34,151 nucleotides of DNA. It comes from a virus. Lineage: Duplodnaviria; Caudoviricetes. The notes under the pieces were generated by a model that searched no databases, was not told where the DNA came from, and worked only from the letters and a program-made list of their open reading frames with translations. Positions 23,869 through 33,740 of the stretch are shown piece after piece. The stretch is taken from the IMG/VR virus record IMGVR_UViG_3300020042_009544, positions 1-34,151 of that record, one strand, 5' to 3'. Every line of letters starts with the position of its first letter. Within the stretch, counting starts at the first letter, position 1. The position numbers and the translations under genes are program-made.

Positions 23869-24129
23869 ATGATACAAAATAGATTTACACAACTAAGTAC
23901 AAATTATATCTTAGAATTACTTGATACTATGGATGCTAAAGTACGTTTTACTTTATTTAATAACCCATCTGATTTATCTCAAAAAATAGTATCTATAGAA
24001 AATAGAATTGATGAATTTGATCAAATGATTAGAGATTTTTATTTAGATGATTCTAAATTAGATTACTTTATATCATTAATGCTTCAAGATCATACAACTG
24101 CATTTTCTATTTACAATAACTTGGCTTAA
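23869..24129 (+). CDS. Hypothetical protein, possibly a fibre chaperone
   Basis: 86 aa directly after the fibre gene; function inferred from position only. Confidence 0.6.
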   Translation: MIQNRFTQLSTNYILELLDTMDAKVRFTLFNNPSDLSQKIVSIENRIDEFDQMIRDFYLDDSKLDYFISLMLQDHTTAFSIYNNLA

Positions 24130-24150
24130 AATATCTTTATTACTATATTA
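24118..24150 (+). promoter_or_regulatory. Putative early/middle promoter AAC-TTGGCT-N17-TATATT-A
   Basis: TTGGCT 24121-24126, 17-nt spacer, TATATT 24144-24149; same layout recurs at 25932-25964; sits at the start of the replication module. Confidence 0.7.
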
Positions 24151-24166: not shown

Positions 24167-25437
24167 ATGTATTGGTTAGTAGAAACTAAAGATCAATTAA
24201 GAGAATTTTTTAATCAAGACTATAAAGAAGTCTTTGTTGAGATTATTCCCTATCATAATCATATTCATCCTGCTTTAAATGATGTATGTTTAGTCTATAT
24301 TAGACCAACTTATGATTCTAAAGGATATATGTTTTGTATTGACCATAGTGAGACAATGTCACTTGGAAAAACATACCTTGAAAAATTATTAAAACATATA
24401 GATACAGTTTATGTTAGGGATAAAAAATCATTTCTATACTACTTTCAATTAAATAAAGTAACAGATATTTCTTCTATTAAACATATAGAAACACCATCTG
24501 AACCTGTATTTGATATCTTTTATAGAAAACATCCTAATAAAACGGATATTAATAAAATAATTCCAATAGTTAAGCATTATGAGGTTTGTGAGAATATTTA
24601 TACTCAACTCGAAAAAACAATCCTAAACCAGAATATGTTAAATTCTATAATAAAGGTGCTTTAGCATTTTTTGGAATTGAAAAAAACGGAATTAAAATTA
24701 ATGAAGACAAGTTTTATAAATACTATGAACCAAATAATAGCTTATACTCAGTACATGATAGTAGGGTGTTTACTCAATATAACCTCAATACTACAACCAG
24801 ACGCCCATCTAATGCCTTTAATAGCATTAACTTCGCTGCTCTAAAGAAAGACAACCACTCAAGAGCAAGCTTTATACCACAAAACAATGAATTTCTTGAA
24901 ATTGATATTTCTGCATACCATCCGACTTTGGCTGGACAACTGGTTTCTCATGAATTTGACAACCCTGATATTCATGCTGATTTTGCTAGCATGTATGGCG
25001 TAGACTATGCTAAAGCAAAAGAATTAACATTTAAACAGTTATATGGAGGAGTATTTAAAGAATATAAATCACTCCCATTCTTCCAAAAAATACAAACATA
25101 TGTTCAAGAACAATGGAAATTGTTTAATGAACAAGGATTTATTAACACTCCTATATCAGGTTATATATTTAAAAAGGATTCATTAGAGAATATGAATCCA
25201 CAAAAATTATTCAATTATATCTTACAAAACCTAGAAACATCAACAAACATAGGTATATTACTTAAGATTCATAAAATATTAACAGGTAAACATACTAAAA
25301 TAGTTTTATACACATATGACTCATTTTTGCTTGATTGGGATGAAGATGAAGAGCAAGAATTAGAACAGATCAAAAATATATTTAAAGAAATGAAGTTATC
25401 AATAAAAATTAATGGGGGGGCGGATTATGACTTTTAA
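24167..25437 (+). CDS. Short divergent family-A DNA polymerase-like protein (~423 aa if joined), split by a -1 frame discontinuity in 24592-24661
   Basis: The downstream frame is open from 24592 and encodes PKPEYVKFYNKGALAFFGIEKNGIKIN before the called GTG at 24766. PolA-like motifs: TTTRRPSN, RASFIP, IDISAYHP (A), AKELTFKQLYGG (B), NYILQ, LYTYDSFLLD (C). Confidence 0.8.
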
Positions 25438-25873
25438 ATCAAACTATGATATGTATGACGCGAACAATGTTAATACTAAGGATTTGATGACTAATAAGTT
25501 ATTTTGCACATTCACAAGTGGTGAGGAATTAGATGAGTTAGTAAGTGAATTATCTACTGTCTACACTATCATGTATAACAAGATGTTTGTATTGTTTGTT
25601 AAAAGCACAAATGAATATGTTGTCACTTACAATGTTGATCAAGGTAATGTAAATACAATCCCTGAGAACACAATTCTAGTTCATCGTAAAAAAGAAACCA
25701 ATACACTTTATACTATAAACGCTCTAAATGAACTTATTAAAAAGTTAAATGATGGAGTAGTTGATATGTCTTATAGAGTAAATTGGCCCCACTATAGAAA
25801 TAGTATATTATTAACCCAACATAATGAGTTAAAACAATTGAATACAAAGGTATTCAAGATCATTGAATTATAA
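25427..25873 (+). CDS. Hypothetical protein between the PolA-like gene and SSB (start uncertain: 25412, 25427, 25451 or 25487)
   Basis: Open frame with ordered-looking core NKLFCTF...TILVHRKKETNTLYTINALNELIK; a motif variant ATATGTATG at 25449-25457 precedes ATG 25487. Confidence 0.75.
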   Translation: MTFKSNYDMYDANNVNTKDLMTNKLFCTFTSGEELDELVSELSTVYTIMYNKMFVLFVKSTNEYVVTYNVDQGNVNTIPENTILVHRKKETNTLYTINALNELIKKLNDGVVDMSYRVNWPHYRNSILLTQHNELKQLNTKVFKIIEL

Positions 25874-25931: not shown

Positions 25932-25964
25932 AACTTGGCCTATTAATAAAAATGTAGTATATTA
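25932..25964 (+). promoter_or_regulatory. Putative early/middle promoter AAC-TTGGCC-N17-TATATT-A
   Basis: TTGGCC 25935-25940, 17-nt spacer, TATATT 25958-25963, upstream of ATG 25994. Confidence 0.7.
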
Positions 25965-25993: not shown

Positions 25994-26848
25994 ATGGACA
26001 TCAATGCGATTAAACAGAGACTAAGCTCTCTACAGTCATCAGGCGCCAAGAAAGAAAAGGTTGACTATTCCAAGTATTATTGGAAGCCTAAAGCCGAAGG
26101 GAAGTATCAAATCCGAGTAGTACCTTCAGTGTTAAACAAGAGTAACCCATTCCAAGAAGTGTTTGTACACTACGGGTTCTCAAAATTCCCAATCTATGCT
26201 TTAACAAACTGGGGTGAAAAAGATCCAATTGTTGAGTTTGCAAAATCACTTCGTACTACACAAGAAAAAGAAAACTGGCAGTTGGCTAAGAAATTAGATC
26301 CAAAAATGAGAGTTTTTGCTCCTGTAGTTGTTCGTGGAGAAGAAGAAAAAGGTGTTCGCCTTTGGGAGTTTGGAAAAGAAATATATATGCAATTATTAGG
26401 TATTGCTGAGGATGAAGATTATGGAGATTTTACTGACATTAATGAAGGCCGTGACTTTACAGTTGATGTAGTAACAGGTGATATTGGTGGTCGTCAAGGG
26501 TTGAAATCATCAATTCGTGTTAAGCCTAAAACATCACCACTAGGTTCTGATAAAGAAACTATTAAAATGTGGTTAACTGAACAACCAAGTGTTCTTGAAT
26601 TACAACGTAAAACTGCATTTGATGATCTTAAAACTATTTTAGCTAACTTCTTAAACCCAGAAGAGGAAGAGACAGTAGCGGTTGAAGTAGACGAAGATGT
26701 AGATCCGATTATTGCTAAAGCACAAGAAGAGCCTAAAACTAACTATAGTTTGAAAGCAGCACCAGTAGCTAAAGTATCTAAAGCAGATAAGTTTGACTCT
26801 TTGTTTGATGATGAAGAAGAAAGCGAAGGCGAAGGTTCACCATTCTAA
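25994..26848 (+). CDS. Single-stranded DNA-binding protein (T4 gp32-like)
   Basis: YWKP...IRVVP, DPIVE, LWEFGKEIY, YGDFTD..EGRDF motifs and a long acidic C-terminal tail. Confidence 0.85.
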   Translation: MDINAIKQRLSSLQSSGAKKEKVDYSKYYWKPKAEGKYQIRVVPSVLNKSNPFQEVFVHYGFSKFPIYALTNWGEKDPIVEFAKSLRTTQEKENWQLAKKLDPKMRVFAPVVVRGEEEKGVRLWEFGKEIYMQLLGIAEDEDYGDFTDINEGRDFTVDVVTGDIGGRQGLKSSIRVKPKTSPLGSDKETIKMWLTEQPSVLELQRKTAFDDLKTILANFLNPEEEETVAVEVDEDVDPIIAKAQEEPKTNYSLKAAPVAKVSKADKFDSLFDDEEESEGEGSPF

Positions 26849-26864
26849 ATAAATAAAAACTTAT

Positions 26865-27950
26865 ATGGCTAAAAAGAAAGAATCTTTAATGACAGCGGTC
26901 TCTGCTGAAATGAAATCTAGTTTTAACCTAGATAAATTTAAAGAGAAAAAACTACTTAACACAACTGTTAAGTTTAAAGAACAGAGATGGATTCCATTTT
27001 CTGAAGCATTACAAGATTCAACTTCACTTCCAGGTGCAGCAATAGGACATATTAATCTTTTAAGAGGACACAGTAACACAGGTAAAACAACTGCGTTATT
27101 AGAACTAGCAATTAATGCCCAGAAAATGGGCATTTTGCCTGTGTTCATTATTACAGAGATGAAATGGTCTTGGGAACATGCTAAACAAATGGGTTTCCAA
27201 GTTGATGACATTGTTGATGAAGCAACAGGTGAAATTATAGACTATAAAGGATTTTTCCTATATACTGACAGAAGTTCATTAGGAACTATTGAAGATGTAG
27301 CAGAGTTTATAGCTGACTTGTTAGACGAACAAAAGAAAGGTAATTTACCTTATGACTTATGTTTCTTCTGGGATTCAATTGGTTCTATACCTTGTAAAAT
27401 GAGTGTTGAACAGAATAAAAACAATCCGATGTGGAATGCAGGTGCAGTATCACAACAGTTTGGTAATTTTATTAATCAACGTTTCCCATTATCAAGAAAA
27501 GAATCATCACCATACACAAATTCAATGGTAGCAGTTAACAAAATATGGATAGCACCAGCTGAAAATATGTTTGCTCAACCTAAAATGAAAATGAAAAATG
27601 GTGAGACAATGTTTTTAGATGCTTCTATTGTACTAACATTTGGTAATATTACTAATAGTGGTACAAGTAAATTAAAAGCAACTAAGGATGGTAAGGAAGT
27701 TGAATTTGCGGTTCGTACTAAAGTAGCAGTAGATAAAAATCACGTTACTGGATTACAAACTAAAAATACAGTTGTAGCTACAATTCACGGTTTTATTCAA
27801 GATGATAACAAAGATATTGCTGACTATAAAAAACAACATGCTCATGAATGGGTACATATTTTAGGTAGTATTGATGGTATTGGTCTTGCTGAGGATAAAT
27901 CAGAATGGGAAGAAAGTAAAGAAAATATTACATTAATTGACGAGGATTAA
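26865..27950 (+). CDS. uvsX: RecA/UvsX-like recombinase
   Basis: Walker A GHSNTGKT, ITE catalytic Glu, Walker B FFWDSIG, C-terminal DKNH. Confidence 0.85.
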   Translation: MAKKKESLMTAVSAEMKSSFNLDKFKEKKLLNTTVKFKEQRWIPFSEALQDSTSLPGAAIGHINLLRGHSNTGKTTALLELAINAQKMGILPVFIITEMKWSWEHAKQMGFQVDDIVDEATGEIIDYKGFFLYTDRSSLGTIEDVAEFIADLLDEQKKGNLPYDLCFFWDSIGSIPCKMSVEQNKNNPMWNAGAVSQQFGNFINQRFPLSRKESSPYTNSMVAVNKIWIAPAENMFAQPKMKMKNGETMFLDASIVLTFGNITNSGTSKLKATKDGKEVEFAVRTKVAVDKNHVTGLQTKNTVVATIHGFIQDDNKDIADYKKQHAHEWVHILGSIDGIGLAEDKSEWEESKENITLIDED

Positions 27951-27951
27951 A

Positions 27952-28998
27952 ATGGATAAAAAAGATTTATTTCGGTTATTAGATGACATTAAATCAGGAG
28001 ACGATGATGAAGTTACAGGTACATTTTCAAAACATGATAAAGTATTAATTATAGATGGTTTAAATCTATTTTTAAGAAACTTTGCAGTATTGAATTATGT
28101 TAACCAAAGCGGAGTTCATGTTGGTGGGTTAGGTGGTTTTTTAAGATCATTAAGTTTTCTAATTAACACAAATAAACCTACATCTGTGTATATTGTATTC
28201 GACGGAGTGGGTTCTTCTGTAAATAGGAAGAACTTACTCCCGGAGTACAAATCAGGTAGGAATCAAGCTCGAATGACTAATCATGATACATTTGATAACT
28301 TAGATGAAGAACATGAATCTAAAGTAAATCAAATTGCTCGCCTCATTCATTATTTAAGGTGTTTACCCGTTAATCTTATTATGCTTGATAAAGTCGAGGC
28401 AGATGACATCATAGCGTATTTATCCCGCTATATGGCAACTAAATACGACAGCAAATGTATAATTGTGTCAGCGGATAAAGATTTTTTACAATTAGTAGAT
28501 GATAATATAACAGTTTATAGTCCTATGGTTAAAGAGTATTACACTCCAAAACTAGTAAAGGAAAAATTTGGCCTCCCACCTCATAATTTTATATTATATA
28601 AGACATTAATGGGTGATAATTCAGATAAGATACCTGGAGTACAAGGATTAGGACCTAAAAAGTTATTTAAGTTGTTTCCTGAATTAGCAGAGAAAGAAAT
28701 GACTTTAGAAGAGGTTTTTGAAATAAGTGAGTCTAAATACAAAGACAATATTATTTATTCCAGGGTGGTTTTTAATAATGAGAGTATTAGGAACAATTAT
28801 TTGATTATGGATTTAGGTAATCCGTTACTAGATGAGGGTGAAAAGAAACATATTGAGAATATAGTTGAACAACCAATTGAAAAAACTAAAACAACTGAGT
28901 TTATTAAGTTATATAATGAAGATGGGTTACACCACACAATCAAAAATGTAGAGTATTGGATTAGAGACACATTCAAAGTTTTAAACAGTTTTAAATAA
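27952..28998 (+). CDS. 5'-3' exonuclease / flap endonuclease (Pol I N-terminal domain, T4 RNase H-like)
   Basis: LIIDGLN, VFDG, YKSGR, EADDIIA, SADKDFLQL, GDNSDKIPGVQGLGPK. ATG 27952, just after the uvsX stop, is preferred to the upstream alternative start. Confidence 0.93.
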   Translation: MDKKDLFRLLDDIKSGDDDEVTGTFSKHDKVLIIDGLNLFLRNFAVLNYVNQSGVHVGGLGGFLRSLSFLINTNKPTSVYIVFDGVGSSVNRKNLLPEYKSGRNQARMTNHDTFDNLDEEHESKVNQIARLIHYLRCLPVNLIMLDKVEADDIIAYLSRYMATKYDSKCIIVSADKDFLQLVDDNITVYSPMVKEYYTPKLVKEKFGLPPHNFILYKTLMGDNSDKIPGVQGLGPKKLFKLFPELAEKEMTLEEVFEISESKYKDNIIYSRVVFNNESIRNNYLIMDLGNPLLDEGEKKHIENIVEQPIEKTKTTEFIKLYNEDGLHHTIKNVEYWIRDTFKVLNSFK

Positions 28999-29007
28999 AT
29001 AAAAGTT

Positions 29008-30372
29008 ATGACACTTTCTACATTATCATCATATGGTATTCATTTCCAAACGAAAGTAATATCTTCCTTATTAACACATAAGGAATTTTTAGTCAACATA
29101 CATGACATTATAAGTGAGGAGTATTTTGACAACTCAGCTCATAAATGGGTCATAAGCGAAATCTTAAAATACTATGACAAATACCATACTACACCAAGTA
29201 TGGAAGTCTTGAAAGTACAAGTAAAGAAAATAGATAATGAAGTTCTACAATTATCAATTAAGGAACAGTTAAAAGAAGCATATAAAGCATCAGATGATGA
29301 TTTAGCTTATGTAGAGGAAGAGTTTTCTAATTTCTGTAAAAACCAACAATTAAAGAAAGCATTATTAACATCAGTAGATTTATTAAATGCTGGTGATTAT
29401 GATTCAATTAGAAATTTAGTTGATAATGCTTTAAAAGCTGGTGGTGATAAAAATTTAGGGTTAGAATATAGTAAAGATATTGAATCTCGATATAGAAAAG
29501 AATATAGAAATCCAATCGCTACACCTTGGGTTTTATTTAATGACTTATTACAAGGTGGTTTAGGTGAGGGCGACTTTGGGTTAATATTTGGTAACCCGGG
29601 AGGAGGTAAATCATGGGCATTAATTGCTTTAGGATCACATGCTGTTCAATTAGGTTTTAATGTAGTACATTATACTTTAGAGTTAGGTGAAGCATATGTT
29701 GGATTACGATATGATGCTTGTTTAACAGGAATACCTGTCAATAATATTACAGAATTTAAAGACCAAGTTGAAAAAGAAATAATAGAACTACCAGGTAATT
29801 TAGTTATTAAAGAATATTCACCTGGTAAAGCATCTATCTCAACAATAGAATCACATATTCAAAAATGTATTGACCAAGATTTTAAACCAGATCTAATTCT
29901 TATTGATTATGTAGACTTACTTCGATCAAAAAGAAACAATCGTGAGCGTAAGGATGAAATTGATGATATTTATCTCAGTACTAAAGGTCTTGCCCGTGAG
30001 TTAAAACTCCCTATATGGAGTGTATCTCAAGTTAATAGAGCAGGAGCTAAAGATGACATTATTGAGGGTGATAAGGCCGCAGGTAGCTATGACAAAGTCA
30101 TGATTACAGATGTGGCTATTTCTCTCTCACGTAAGAAAGAAGACAAAGTAGCAGGCACAGGTAGATTTCACTTTATGAAAAACAGATACGGAGGAGACGG
30201 TATGACATTTGGAGCAAAAATTGATACATCAACAGGTCGTTTTGAAATCTTTAATGACTACGATGATAATGAAGAATCATATACACCATCAAAACCAGTA
30301 AATAGTTTTAGTGAAATAAATAGCATAGATCGAGACATTCTTCAAAAGAAATTCTTCGAATTACAATCTTAA
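29008..30372 (+). CDS. Replicative DnaB-family (gp41-like) helicase
   Basis: Walker A GNPGGGKS, YTLEL, LIDYVDLL, SQVNR, KNRYG. Confidence 0.93.
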   Translation: MTLSTLSSYGIHFQTKVISSLLTHKEFLVNIHDIISEEYFDNSAHKWVISEILKYYDKYHTTPSMEVLKVQVKKIDNEVLQLSIKEQLKEAYKASDDDLAYVEEEFSNFCKNQQLKKALLTSVDLLNAGDYDSIRNLVDNALKAGGDKNLGLEYSKDIESRYRKEYRNPIATPWVLFNDLLQGGLGEGDFGLIFGNPGGGKSWALIALGSHAVQLGFNVVHYTLELGEAYVGLRYDACLTGIPVNNITEFKDQVEKEIIELPGNLVIKEYSPGKASISTIESHIQKCIDQDFKPDLILIDYVDLLRSKRNNRERKDEIDDIYLSTKGLARELKLPIWSVSQVNRAGAKDDIIEGDKAAGSYDKVMITDVAISLSRKKEDKVAGTGRFHFMKNRYGGDGMTFGAKIDTSTGRFEIFNDYDDNEESYTPSKPVNSFSEINSIDRDILQKKFFELQS

Positions 30373-30388
30373 CATTATATTAAAATAT

Positions 30389-31339
30389 ATGATTACTGAA
30401 ATAAGAAATTTTTATAAGCCGTTTGAGTACCAACAGGCGTTTGATTTTTATAAAGATCAACATCGTTCACATTGGTTAGCAGACGAAGTTCCATTAGCAT
30501 CAGATTTAGGTGACTGGAAAGGCAAATTAACAGAATCGGAGAAGAATTTAATTGGAAACATATTAAAGTCATTTGCTCAAACAGAGGTTCATGTAAACGA
30601 TTATTGGTCAACAAAAGTATCAATATGGTTTCCAAAACCTGAAATACAAGCAATGGCTCGTGTGTTTGCTGATTTTGAATCAATTCATGCTGAAGCCTAT
30701 GCTCGTTTGAATGAAGAATTAGGTTTAGATGATTTTCAAGCGTTTTTAGAGGATGAAACATCAAAAGCAAAAATTGAACGCTTAATTGAAACACCAGGTG
30801 AAACATTAGAGGAAAGAGCATTATCATTAGCTATATTCTCAGCGTTCACTGAAGGAGTAAATTTGTTTAGTTCATTTGCTATATTGATGAGTTTCCAATT
30901 AAGAAACTTAATGAAAGGAACAGGTCAGATTGTTGAATGGAGTGTTAGAGATGAATCATTACATTCTAAAGCAGGATGTTGGTTGTTTAGAACATTACTT
31001 AATGAACAACCTGAACTAGATAATGATAGATTAAGAGATGCAGTAATAGAAGCATGTCAAATAGCAGTACAATTAGAGTTTGATTTTATTGATAAAGCGT
31101 TTGAAATGGGAGATGTTGATGGATTAAATGTTAATCAACTAAAAAACTTCATTAAAGCACGAGCTAATGAGAAAATGGTAGAATTAGGTTATAAAGCAAT
31201 TTATAATGATATTGATCCAAACTTACTAAAACAAATTGAGTGGTTTGGTCATTTAACAAGCGGTAAAACGCATCAAGATTTCTTTGCAGGAAGAGTAACT
31301 AGTTACTCAAAGTCAACAGCAGATTGGGACGATTTATAA
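30389..31339 (+). CDS. nrdB: Class I ribonucleotide reductase beta subunit
   Basis: FAQTE, ESIHAEAY, TEGVNLFSSF, RDESLH, C-terminal DFF..RVTSY. Confidence 0.96.
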   Translation: MITEIRNFYKPFEYQQAFDFYKDQHRSHWLADEVPLASDLGDWKGKLTESEKNLIGNILKSFAQTEVHVNDYWSTKVSIWFPKPEIQAMARVFADFESIHAEAYARLNEELGLDDFQAFLEDETSKAKIERLIETPGETLEERALSLAIFSAFTEGVNLFSSFAILMSFQLRNLMKGTGQIVEWSVRDESLHSKAGCWLFRTLLNEQPELDNDRLRDAVIEACQIAVQLEFDFIDKAFEMGDVDGLNVNQLKNFIKARANEKMVELGYKAIYNDIDPNLLKQIEWFGHLTSGKTHQDFFAGRVTSYSKSTADWDDL

Positions 31340-31349
31340 AAAACAAAAA

Positions 31350-33074
31350 ATGAGTATACAAGTAGACACAGATGGATGGGTTAAGGGGAAGAACTACCCA
31401 AGTTGGATGGATGAGATTGCAGTTAGTATGATTTCAAAAGGTTATTTATTACCTGATGAAGATGTGTTTGACGCATATAAGAGAGTAACTAAATCAGCAG
31501 CACGCAGATTAAAACGTAAAGATTTACAACCATTCTTTTACGAGGCAATAGTTAAGAATTGGTTATGCTTAGCATCACCAGTATTATCAAATTTAGGTAC
31601 AGAACGTGGAATGCCAATTTCATGCTTTGGTATTGATGTTGGAGATAGTATTGAAGGTATTGCAGATGCTAACTCTGAATTAATGAGATTATCATCTCAA
31701 GGTGGAGGAGTAGGTATTGGTTTATCTCGCATTAGAGGCCGAGGTAAAGGAATTAAAGACAATGGTGTGTCTGAAGGTATTGTTCCATGGGCTAAAATTT
31801 ATGACTCAACTATTTTAGCTACCAACCAAGGCTCAGTTCGTAGAGGAGCAGCATCAGTTAACTTAAACATTAATCACCCAGATGTTGAGGAATTTTTACA
31901 AATTCGTAGACCAAAAGGTGATGTTAATCGCCAGTGTTTAAATTTACACCAGTGTGTTGTTATTGATGATCAGTTTATGACTGACCTAGACAATAAAGAA
32001 CCTAGAGCAATGAAGTTGTGGGGTGAGATTTTAAAAACACGTCTTGAAACAGGTGAGCCTTATATCATGTTTGAAGATAATGTTAATAATGCAAATCCTG
32101 AAGCATATAAGAAAAATAACTTAAATGTTTCAATGACTAACATTTGTTCTGAGATTTCATTATACACAGATGAATTACACTCATTCATTTGCTGTTTATC
32201 ATCTTTAAACTTAGCTCGTTGGGATGAATGGAAAGATTTTACATTTGAAAATGGGATGACATTACCTGAGTTAACTTGTTGGTTCTTAGAAGGTGTATTA
32301 CAAGAATTCATTGATAGAGCTAAAAATGTTAAGTTTATGGAAAACACAGTTCGTTCTGCTACTAAAGGTAGAGCAATTGGAATTGGTGTTTTAGGATGGC
32401 ATACATTTTTACAATCAAAGAATTTACCATTTGTAGGTATTCAAGCAACTGCTCATACAAGAATGATATCTGACTTTATTGAAAAAGGTGCTTTAAAAGC
32501 ATCTCGCGACCAAGCAGAATTATATGGTGAACCAGAATGGTGTAAAGGTACAGGTATGAGACATACTCATCACTTAGCAATTGCACCTACAGTATCTAAT
32601 GCTCACATTTCAGGAGGTGTATCACCTTCAATTGAACCTATTCCTGCTAACGTTTATAATTTAAAAACAGCAAAAGGTGTATTCATTAAGCGTAATAAAA
32701 TATTAGAGGAATTACTTGAAACTAAAGGATATAATATTGATAGTGTTTGGGAACAAATTCTAAAAGATCAAGGTTCAGTAATCAATGTTCCGTCTTATAT
32801 CTTAACAGATGAAGAAAAGGAAGTATTCTTAACATTTAAAGAAATCAACCAATTAGAAATTGTAAGACAAAATGGCGTTAGACAAGAATATGTAGACCAA
32901 GCTATCTCATTAAACTTATGCTTTGATCCAAATGATACTCCAAAGTGGATTAGTCAAGTACATAAAGAGGCTCATAAGTTAGGTATTAAAACATTATACT
33001 ACCTACGTACTGAATCAGTATTAAGAGGAGATAATTTACAACGTTTATCAGAATGTGTTTCTTGTGAGGGATAA
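31350..33074 (+). CDS. nrdA: Class I ribonucleotide reductase alpha subunit, without an ATP cone
   Basis: SPVLSN, ISCF, GGGVG, RRGA, TNICSEI, CCLSSLNL, IAPT, LYYLR and C-terminal CVSCEG; only 574 aa. Confidence 0.96.
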   Translation: MSIQVDTDGWVKGKNYPSWMDEIAVSMISKGYLLPDEDVFDAYKRVTKSAARRLKRKDLQPFFYEAIVKNWLCLASPVLSNLGTERGMPISCFGIDVGDSIEGIADANSELMRLSSQGGGVGIGLSRIRGRGKGIKDNGVSEGIVPWAKIYDSTILATNQGSVRRGAASVNLNINHPDVEEFLQIRRPKGDVNRQCLNLHQCVVIDDQFMTDLDNKEPRAMKLWGEILKTRLETGEPYIMFEDNVNNANPEAYKKNNLNVSMTNICSEISLYTDELHSFICCLSSLNLARWDEWKDFTFENGMTLPELTCWFLEGVLQEFIDRAKNVKFMENTVRSATKGRAIGIGVLGWHTFLQSKNLPFVGIQATAHTRMISDFIEKGALKASRDQAELYGEPEWCKGTGMRHTHHLAIAPTVSNAHISGGVSPSIEPIPANVYNLKTAKGVFIKRNKILEELLETKGYNIDSVWEQILKDQGSVINVPSYILTDEEKEVFLTFKEINQLEIVRQNGVRQEYVDQAISLNLCFDPNDTPKWISQVHKEAHKLGIKTLYYLRTESVLRGDNLQRLSECVSCEG

Positions 33075-33088
33075 TGGGTCTTTAATTT

Positions 33089-33126
33089 TTCCTATATATT
33101 TATAATAAAACACAATATGATAGGAA
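33089..33126 (+). promoter_or_regulatory. Late promoter motif (33096-33104) inside a hairpin that sequesters the endonuclease start codon
   Basis: TTCCTATATATT (33089-33100) pairs with AATAT-G-ATAGGAA (33114-33126): 12 bp with one bulged G, covering ATG 33117. Confidence 0.65.
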
Positions 33127-33740
33127 TTTATAAAATTACAAATCCTGAAGGTAAAGCATATATTGGTTTATCTAAAGAAATTGAAAAACGTCTTCAAAGT
33201 CATAAAGCATTACGATTTAAAAGAAATAACAAACTTAGAGAATCCTTAACTAAATACGGTTGGGATTCTCATTTTTGTGAAATTTTAGAAGAAATTGATA
33301 TTTTTAGTTTAAATAGAAATGAAGGAAATGCTTTACTCCGTAAACAAGAAAGATATTGGATAGATAAATTAAATACATTTCGTAATGGTTTAAATGAAAA
33401 TGGTGGAGGAAGTGGATGTGGATCTCACACCCCTGAATCTAAACAAAAAATATCTGAGGCGTTAAAAAACAAACCTAAACCTTTAGATTTTGGGACTAAA
33501 AGAAAAAAATGGCAACATACTGATGAGTTTAAAAGTAAAATAAAAGCTGCTCCTAGATGCCCTATATTAATGTTTGATTTAGAAGATAATTTTATTAAAG
33601 AATTTCCAACACAACAATCAGCAGCAGAATATCTTGGTGTTAAGAAAAATGCAATTTGGAATTTTTTAAATAGCCATCCTAATCCTAATGGAAAACCATT
33701 AACTCAAGTTAAAGGGCATAAATTTAGATATAAAATATGA
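33117..33740 (+). mobile_element. Free-standing GIY-YIG homing endonuclease (Seg-like)
   Basis: GIYKITN...AYIGLS, R...H, ERYWI, GLNE; NUMOD3-like HTPESKQKISEALK and HTDEFKSKIK; C-terminal NUMOD1/HTH-like IKEFPTQQSAAEYLGV. Confidence 0.92.

What the first reader, a model, noticed from the sequence alone, without database searches (positions are those of the whole stretch)
24592..25437. Thumb-less mini family-A polymerase with a His at the sugar steric gate and other rewired catalytic motifs
Seen: IEKNGIKIN is followed only about 35-40 aa later by RVFTQY...TTTRRPSN. Known: the matching E. coli Pol I segments (IERNGVKID and RVHTSY...TGRLSS) are roughly 120 aa apart and enclose the thumb, so most of the thumb appears to be missing. 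Motif A reads DISAYHPT instead of DYSQIELR, putting His at the E710 steric-gate position that excludes rNTPs. Motif B keeps K758/F762/Y766 but has Tyr at R754. Motif C is TYDS instead of VHDE. Both catalytic Asp residues are retained. The N-terminal part has no evident ExoI DxE motif (FVEII). Inference: probably not the processive replicase but a repurposed nucleotidyltransferase, for example a primer-synthesising, rNTP or modified-nucleotide adding, or end-processing enzyme. It heads the SSB/UvsX/exonuclease/helicase module, and no primase is visible in this window. This is my best candidate for an undescribed activity here.
Basis: partly seen in the sequence, partly recalled or inferred. Interest (0 to 1): 0.8.

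Follow-up and report, generated by a model that had tools for sequence, protein, structure and literature searches.

The report
Thumbless helper polymerase of lake phage
This phage gene encodes a stripped-down Pol I-type polymerase of a family already described from sequence in 2024 (divPolA1); it likely copies only short stretches of DNA at primer ends as a helper to the main replicase found in related phages, and its unusual active-site histidine and small linked partner gene remain untested.

Summary
The gene runs 24167-25437 and is 425 aa in close relatives. The window's frame break is a 7-nt gap absent from 12 of 12 aligned relatives and 4 of 4 read sets, so likely an assembly artefact. 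The AlphaFold model (pLDDT 97) matches Klenow (Z 22.9). The thumb is 86 residues short. Both catalytic Asp are invariant, His replaces E710 in 134 of 137 sequences, and Tyr at R754 is variable (86 of 137). This is divPolA1 (Yutin 2024), and this scan already found it on four other genomes. All 5 near-complete relatives also encode DnaG primase and a regular replicase, so the missing-primase argument fails; His does not imply rNTP use. Added here: the last thumb helix is four residues short, as reported for PolA-SSB primases, and a promoter-like motif precedes only this gene and SSB (2 of 31 genes). A more conserved ~150-aa partner gene follows directly in 89 of 94 loci. Best reading: a distributive, non-proofreading helper polymerase that hands off to the replicase (0.45). 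Main rival: a de novo primase with its partner (0.27). Known family, function open.

The parts
24120..24149 (+). Promoter-like element (CTTGG ... TATATT) directly before the polymerase gene
   Evidence: Pattern found in the 73 nt around the start in 32 of 39 related loci against 25 of 546 windows inside the genes; present before only 2 of 31 window genes, this one and SSB. Function inferred.
24167..24620 (+). divPolA1 5' part: 3'-5' exonuclease-like domain without conserved catalytic acids; own conserved residues H34, H60, K87, D100, N129, P133, K136, E139
   Evidence: model residues 1-156 match DEDDy/RNase D-type nuclease folds at Z 8-11
24611..24624 (+). Frame break: 7 nt fewer than in relatives, at a site where population alleles differ; likely assembly artefact
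   Evidence: 12 of 12 aligned relatives have no gap; the contig over the site carries 7 extra letters in 4 of 4 DNA runs
24625..25437 (+). divPolA1 3' part: thumb stump, palm and fingers
24676..24762 (+). Thumb stump (29 aa from IEKNG to RVFTQY, against 114 aa in E. coli)
24763..24873 (+). Hairpin with invariant Arg (R215 = R668) and a last thumb helix four residues shorter than in Pol I
   Evidence: N224 to R235 is 11 aa in 128 of 137, against 15 in E. coli Pol I and 16 in T7 gp5
24904..24921 (+). Motif A: catalytic D249 and H254 at the E710 sugar-gate position
25006..25044 (+). Motif B: K287, F291, Y295 kept; R754 position variable (Tyr here)
25213..25236 (+). Q356 (= Q849) followed by an invariant Glu (E359) where Pol I has Ala852
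   Evidence: Q 136 of 137, E 137 of 137
25312..25323 (+). Motif C TYDS with catalytic D387
25412..25873 (+). Partner gene (148-153 aa), overlaps the polymerase stop; no family match; predicted ferredoxin/RRM-like N-terminal fold
   Evidence: within 200 nt downstream in 89 of 94 loci
25934..25963 (+). Second promoter-like element before SSB
25994..26848 (+). gp32-like SSB
26865..27950 (+). UvsX/RecA-like recombinase
27937..28998 (+). 5'-3' exonuclease (Pol I N-terminal / FEN type)
29008..30372 (+). DnaB-like helicase
30389..33074 (+). Ribonucleotide reductase small and large subunits

Best explanation
The gene encodes divPolA1, a family A polymerase with both catalytic aspartates, a thumb 86 residues shorter than in Pol I and a predicted dead proofreading domain, which likely works as a low-processivity helper that adds short template-directed DNA tracts to existing 3' ends and would leave long synthesis to the separate replicase found in related phages. 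Shown: fold, motifs, conservation, gene order, and co-occurrence with DnaG and a regular replicase in relatives. Inferred: (1) it is catalytically active; (2) it is distributive because it cannot grip duplex DNA; (3) His254 still bars most rNTPs, probably with lowered fidelity; (4) its substrates are DnaG primers, UvsX D-loop ends or gaps left by the neighbouring 5'-3' exonuclease; (5) it is co-expressed with the small partner, which would supply the lost nucleic-acid grip. The frame break in this record is likely an assembly error.
For: Model pLDDT 97.3; best fold matches are family A DNA polymerases (Klenow 1d9d Z 22.9, rmsd 3.3, 411 aligned), RNA polymerases only Z 8-13. All primer-extension residues kept: R668, D705, K758, F762, Y766, Q849, D882 equivalents. 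dN/dS 0.05-0.21 in 7 of 7 pairs. Fixed order polymerase-partner-SSB-UvsX-5' exonuclease-DnaB (same order without a UvsX hit in a 484-kb phage). DnaG in 5 of 5 near-complete relatives; regular replicase in 5 of 5 (PolB 4, PolA 1), with clamp-loader subunits in G004. Thumb-truncated Pol I stays active with less processivity and fidelity (stated in Rice, 10.1101/2022.12.02.518924). E710A/Q are mutators (PMC3715850); His760 is the modelled gate of Pol III (PMC8485763).
Against: No activity is measured here or in the papers read. Gap filling could be done by host Pol I or, in immuto, by its own full PolA (gp72), yet divPolA1 is kept while the main replicase varies among families A, B and C (PMC11348598), which points to a job no ordinary polymerase does. 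Three features lean to initiation: the short last thumb helix, the YDSF motif C resembling T7 RNAP HDSF, and the invariant E359. R754 is lost in most members, which may impair dNTP binding. The Pol III His gate is in an unrelated fold, so it is only an analogy.
Confidence: 0.45

Rival explanations
1. divPolA1 and its partner form a two-subunit primase that starts chains de novo (leading-strand, origin or restart priming), working like CcPol-MP but with a different partner fold, beside DnaG for the lagging strand.
For: Last thumb helix four residues short in 128 of 137, the feature Rice and Bebel name for PolA-SSB primases and T7 RNAP; CcPol also has a shortened thumb. Partner directly downstream in 89 of 94 loci and more conserved than the polymerase (60% against 33-39% mean column identity); shared promoter-like element. 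Kept while the replicase family changes. Among the partner's top fold rows the SV40 origin-binding domain spans the whole chain (Z 5.5-5.9, 96-100 aligned, rmsd about 4; within the noise range).
Against: DnaG with intact Toprim motifs in all near-complete relatives examined. The helicase is DnaB, not the D5/DUF927 type linked to PolA-SSB primases. The partner model is a mixed alpha/beta ferredoxin-like fold rather than the all-beta barrel described for MP. I could not test how specific the short helix is among ordinary PolAs (only three comparators).
Confidence: 0.27
2. It is a ribonucleotide-using enzyme (short RNA or mixed primer maker, mini RNA polymerase), the first reader's rNTP idea.
For: E710, the Pol I steric gate (PMC3715850), is replaced in 137 of 137 sequences; motif C DSF matches T7 RNAP D812-S813-F814; E359 may match T7 RNAP D787 (equivalence recalled, no paper found).
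Against: T7 RNAP has Gly542 at this position, not a bulky His; F762 and Y766 equivalents kept; fold closer to DNA polymerases; profile comparison with T7 RNAP gives probability 0.1%; no promoter-binding domain.
Confidence: 0.12
3. It adds nucleotides without a template or handles modified bases (end processing, copying past or adding modified nucleotides).
For: Rewired pocket (H254, E359, Y386); immuto carries 7-deazaguanine and glycosyltransferase genes.
Against: Template-reading residues R668, Q849, Y766 equivalents are kept; the modification genes lie far from the locus; the neighbourhood is replication and recombination.
Confidence: 0.08
4. It is a non-catalytic scaffold, decoy or decaying gene.
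For: The copy in this record is frame-broken; one other contig (G006) shows a stop inside the match.
Against: Catalytic residues invariant in 137 sequences at 29-80% identity; dN/dS 0.055 and 0.126 on the two sides of the break; break absent from read sets.
Confidence: 0.05

Closest known systems
divPolA1 (Yutin et al. 2024, Virol J 21:200, PMC11348598; type members in Flavobacterium phages vB_FspM_immuto)
   Same: Homologous to immuto gp1 (39% identity, 92% covered); catalytic palm, truncated thumb, dead exonuclease, same downstream replication genes, second regular polymerase in the genome.
   Different: Nothing at family level. The sections I read do not mention the His gate, the short last thumb helix, E359, the partner gene or the promoter; their alignment figures and supplements were not seen. 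The family is far larger than the 14 phages reported: 4309 proteins at 90% clustering, 1088 at 50% clustering with E up to 0.001 (the weakest may be ordinary PolAs).
CcPol-MP / PolA-SSB primases (Bebel 2020, PMC7581432; Rice, 10.1101/2022.12.02.518924)
   Same: Family A core with shortened thumb, short last thumb helix and a small gene directly downstream.
   Different: CcPol keeps E710 and F762; MP is a predicted OB fold; helicase is D5/DUF927 type with recombinases on mobile elements. Here a lytic-type phage with DnaB, DnaG and PolB.
TV-Pol family (Iyer 2008, PMC2579912)
   Same: Minimal family A core with the hairpin Arg and two Asp.
   Different: TV-Pols keep RxxxK, carry no nuclease domain and go with D5 helicases or transposases; divPolA1 has an exonuclease-like domain, mostly lacks the Arg and sits with DnaB.
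[quoted passage not shown]
   Same: Same fold and domain order (Z 22.9); a Pol I-type 5'-3' exonuclease is encoded four genes downstream.
   Different: About 180 aa shorter; thumb stump, trimmed fingers (D705-K758 53 aa against mostly 38-46; Y766-Q849 83 against about 60), no proofreading, E710H, H881Y, E883S.
divPolA2 (same paper) and T7-type RNA polymerase
   Same: Reduced family A palm.
   Different: No sequence-profile match (probability 0.2% and 0.1%); the divPolA2 example keeps Glu at the gate, T7 RNAP has Gly.

Membership tests
divPolA1 | Homology to the immuto phage protein | tested here: met
   39% identity over 92%, E 8e-81
divPolA1 | Palm with conserved catalytic residues | tested here: met
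   D249, D387 invariant in 137 of 137
divPolA1 | Truncated thumb | tested here: met
   41 aa against 127; model
divPolA1 | Inactivated 3'-5' exonuclease domain | tested here: met
   Nuclease-like fold with no conserved DxE in the first strand (E25 45 of 137); by sequence only, model coordinates could not be superposed
divPolA1 | Conserved replication genes downstream | tested here: met
divPolA1 | A regular DNA polymerase elsewhere in the same genome | tested here: inconclusive
   Own record is a 34-kb fragment; PolB in 5 of 5 related contigs including the 96%-identical L006 contig
Family A DNA polymerase | Fold and motifs A, B, C | tested here: met
Family A DNA polymerase | dNTP-dependent primer extension | not testable with these tools
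   needs an assay
PolA-SSB primase (CcPol-MP) | Short last thumb helix | tested here: met
   11 aa against 15-16
PolA-SSB primase (CcPol-MP) | Adjacent OB-fold SSB subunit | tested here: inconclusive
   Partner model (pLDDT 82) gives ferredoxin/RRM-like rows at Z under 6
PolA-SSB primase (CcPol-MP) | D5/DUF927 helicase and site-specific recombinase next to it | tested here: not met
   Neighbours are gp32, UvsX, 5' exonuclease, DnaB
PolA-SSB primase (CcPol-MP) | Primer-independent synthesis | not testable with these tools
   needs an assay
TV-Pol | RxxxK in the fingers, no nuclease domain, D5 helicase or transposase link | tested here: not met
   Arg in 14 of 137; exonuclease-like domain present; DnaB neighbour
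TV-Pol | Sequence-profile relation to TV-Pol members | not tested
   The paper's alignment supplement gave no text; no TV-Pol sequence was compared
T7-type RNA polymerase | Small residue (Gly542) at the sugar gate and an N-terminal promoter-binding domain | tested here: not met
   His in 134 of 137; N-terminal domain is exonuclease-like
divPolA2 | Homology; no exonuclease domain; variable neighbourhood | tested here: not met

The most novel reading that the evidence does not exclude
divPolA1 and its small partner are a dedicated two-subunit initiator primase of a large clade of aquatic phages: the partner binds the origin or template with an RRM-like fold, the thumbless polymerase starts chains de novo through a His-gated pocket, and any replicase (A, B or C) takes over, which is what lets these phages swap their main polymerase freely.
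Probability: 0.25. Interest if true: 0.8.

Novelty: new member of a known kind. Interest (0 to 1): 0.4.

Why it matters
The family is described but untested, and it is large (thousands of proteins, about 5900 stored stretches of IMG/VR by the tool's estimate). It is the constant polymerase in phages whose main replicase varies, and it breaks a residue called universally conserved in family A (E710, PMC3715850). Cultured carriers exist (Flavobacterium phage immuto, Microcystis phage Mel-JY01), so the function is directly testable. If it only extends primers it is a neat minimal Pol I; if it primes de novo with its partner it would be a new primase architecture, and a natural His-gated PolA could be useful for engineering sugar selectivity.

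Tried and rejected
Pfam and NCBIfam give no family for the polymerase; PHROGs gives only phrog_17 at E 1e-7 to 3e-9. Complex prediction of polymerase with partner residues 20-152: no answer, score 0.01 against a mark of 0.32; no evidence either way. Partner: no useful match in Pfam, PHROGs, NCBIfam, PDB sequences, Atlas or Foldseek; no OB-fold row among the 50 listed, which does not exclude it. Programmed frameshift: rejected, since relatives are in frame. Search for longer fused forms: 1 of 9 hits is a full divPolA1 in a 946-aa record, the other 8 are ordinary Pol I; no fusion to the partner seen. PF00476 and PolC found in 0 of 5 related contigs. Five further primase-bearing contigs (61-82% complete): divPolA1 in 2 of 5, PolB in 3 of 5; fragments, so absences say nothing. 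RNA runs: contigs cover the partner in 4 of 4 and one 152-nt piece of the polymerase in 1 of 4; contigs cannot show transcription. Sigma-70 scan not above shuffles (22 against 19). A control for how common the short helix is among solved PolAs returned only chance hits. No paper found for the T7 RNAP H784/D787 equivalence or for TV-Pol motifs; the relation of this motif pattern to TV-Pols is left open.

Full report
Observation. The window is a 34,151-nt virus record with tail sheath, tail tube and neck genes followed by a replication module. The gene begins at 24167 in another frame. Close relatives encode one 425-aa protein (P0003, 96% identical over the part searched). Aligned with 12 related loci, the window lacks 7 nt near 24622, none of the 12 has a gap, and the site is where two allele types differ. 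In 4 of 4 DNA runs laid (of 20 holders listed) the contig over the site has 7 extra letters; contigs drop rare variants, so a private mutation is not excluded. dN/dS on the two sides of the break is 0.055 and 0.126. I read the break as a likely assembly artefact.

Anatomy. Alignment A1 holds 137 sequences: 7 close homologues and 130 of the best 150 listed 50%-cluster representatives (20 short, partial or two-piece rows left out; 1088 hits in all). Numbering is from E. coli polA fetched from K-12. R215 (R668), D249 (D705), K287 (K758), E359 (A852 in Pol I) and D387 (D882) are invariant. H254 at E710 is in 134 of 137, Gln in 3; F291 126, Y295 133, Q356 136, Y386 134. The R754 position is variable (Tyr 86, Ile 16, Arg 14). 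The thumb span is 41 aa (23-43) against 127; fingers are also trimmed. The last thumb helix is four residues short (11 aa in 128 of 137, against 15 in Pol I and 16 in T7 gp5). The N-terminal domain has a nuclease-like fold without a conserved DxE but with its own conserved H34, H60, K87, D100, N129, P133, K136, E139. AlphaFold gives pLDDT 97.3, pTM 0.94; the best matches are family A DNA polymerases (Klenow Z 22.9, rmsd 3.3, 411 aligned), single-subunit RNA polymerases follow at Z 8-13. dN/dS is 0.05-0.21 in 7 of 7 pairs.

Context. A ~150-aa gene overlaps the stop codon. Of 105 loci examined, 94 had 600 nt or more downstream; the partner lay within 200 nt in 89, further off in 3 (two behind an HNH-like gene) and was not seen in 2 that end within 1 kb. 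Three contigs are counted twice (86 of 91 distinct) and many are close kin. The partner is more conserved than the polymerase (mean column identity 60% against 39% and 33%, on sets of different breadth). Its model (pLDDT 82) has a ferredoxin/RRM-like N-terminal part with no match above Z 5.9. SSB, UvsX, 5'-3' exonuclease, DnaB and mostly NrdB/A follow, also in immuto, Mel-JY01 and, in part, a 484-kb phage. A TTG-N16-21-TA[TC][AC]TT pattern lies just before the gene in 32 of 39 loci against 25 of 546 control windows (pattern written from the window's two sites) and before only 2 of 31 window genes, this one and SSB. Its likeness to the Bacteroidetes TAnnTTTG promoter is recalled; I saw only a search listing.

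Replicase and primase elsewhere. PolB was found in 5 of 5 related contigs, one of them carrying a 96%-identical divPolA1; the G004 enzyme has exonuclease and polymerase domains and clamp-loader subunits nearby. DnaG was found in 2 of 2 near-complete IMG/VR records and 3 of 3 named genomes; the three sequences read keep the EG, DxD and DP motifs (motif names recalled). Immuto has a full second PolA (gp72); Mel-JY01 and LR756508 have PolB. So 5 of 5 near-complete genomes carry divPolA1, DnaG and a regular replicase.

Known or new. Yutin et al. named this family divPolA1: 14 phages, palm intact, thumb truncated, exonuclease inactive, regular polymerase of family A, B or C in the same genome (preprint passages and sections 14-15; Virol J abstract and section 13). 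A search for the name finds only versions of that paper. The text I read does not mention the His, the partner or any assay; figures and supplements were not seen and may show the His. This scan noted the same family, His and partner on four other genomes; those notes are leads, and the points were re-tested here.

Mechanism. Best reading (0.45): an active, distributive, non-proofreading DNA polymerase that extends existing 3' ends for short tracts (DnaG primers, UvsX D-loops, gaps after the 5' exonuclease) and leaves long synthesis to the replicase. Every primer-extension residue is kept and a primase is already present. His at the gate does not imply rNTP use: T7 RNAP has Gly there, Pol III is modelled with a His gate (PMC8485763, passages), and E710A/Q mainly act as mutators in the passages read (PMC3715850). 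Against it, host Pol I or immuto's own PolA could fill gaps, yet divPolA1 is kept while replicases change. Main rival (0.27): de novo primase with the partner. The short last thumb helix is the feature that Rice (parts 1-3 of 4 read) and Bebel (passages) tie to initiation, and CcPol also has a short thumb; but CcPol keeps E710, MP is a predicted OB fold, the helicase type differs and DnaG is intact. rNTP use (0.12), template-free or modified-base work (0.08) and scaffold or decay (0.05) are less likely. TV-Pol (PMC2579912, whole text; supplement empty) and divPolA2 do not fit as families; Czernecki 2023 (PMC10201439, passages) was read for CcPol and the steric gate.

Verdict. Observation confirmed, interpretation partly supported. 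New member of a known but uncharacterised family, found before by this scan. Interest 0.4; the primase reading would deserve 0.8 at probability about 0.25.

Noticed in passing
P0393: A 946-aa record joins an N-terminal second polymerase-like domain (motif A ending QP, QxxE, HDS; looks TV-Pol-like from recall) to a complete divPolA1; a single record, possibly a read-through of two genes.
   Followed up: partly
L046:7259-7972, L091:1037-1717: HNH-like homing endonuclease genes inserted between the polymerase and its partner (family judged by eye).
   Followed up: partly
window 33117-33740: GIY-YIG / NUMOD3 / NUMOD1 homing endonuclease directly after nrdA.
   Followed up: no
window 24167-24620: The dead exonuclease domain keeps its own conserved set (H34, H60, D/E62, K87, D100, N129, P133, K136, E139), which could be a new binding or metal site.
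   Followed up: partly
G003 L125:12443-15698; G010: PolB appears in two open frames (about 590 and 300 aa) in two relatives, split or interrupted.
   Followed up: no
G006:135034-136290: A divPolA1 match with one TGA inside.
   Followed up: no
L132-L143 (genome contigs): The module turns up in 12 contigs filed in bacterial MAGs of many taxa, probably mis-binned phage DNA.
   Followed up: partly
window 23869-24129: 86-aa ORF of no known family just before the promoter; seen by tblastn in only one related locus.
   Followed up: no
L116:11946-12665 (G004): 240-aa gene between PolB and GroEL with no PHROG match; a sliding-clamp candidate given the clamp-loader genes nearby.
   Followed up: partly
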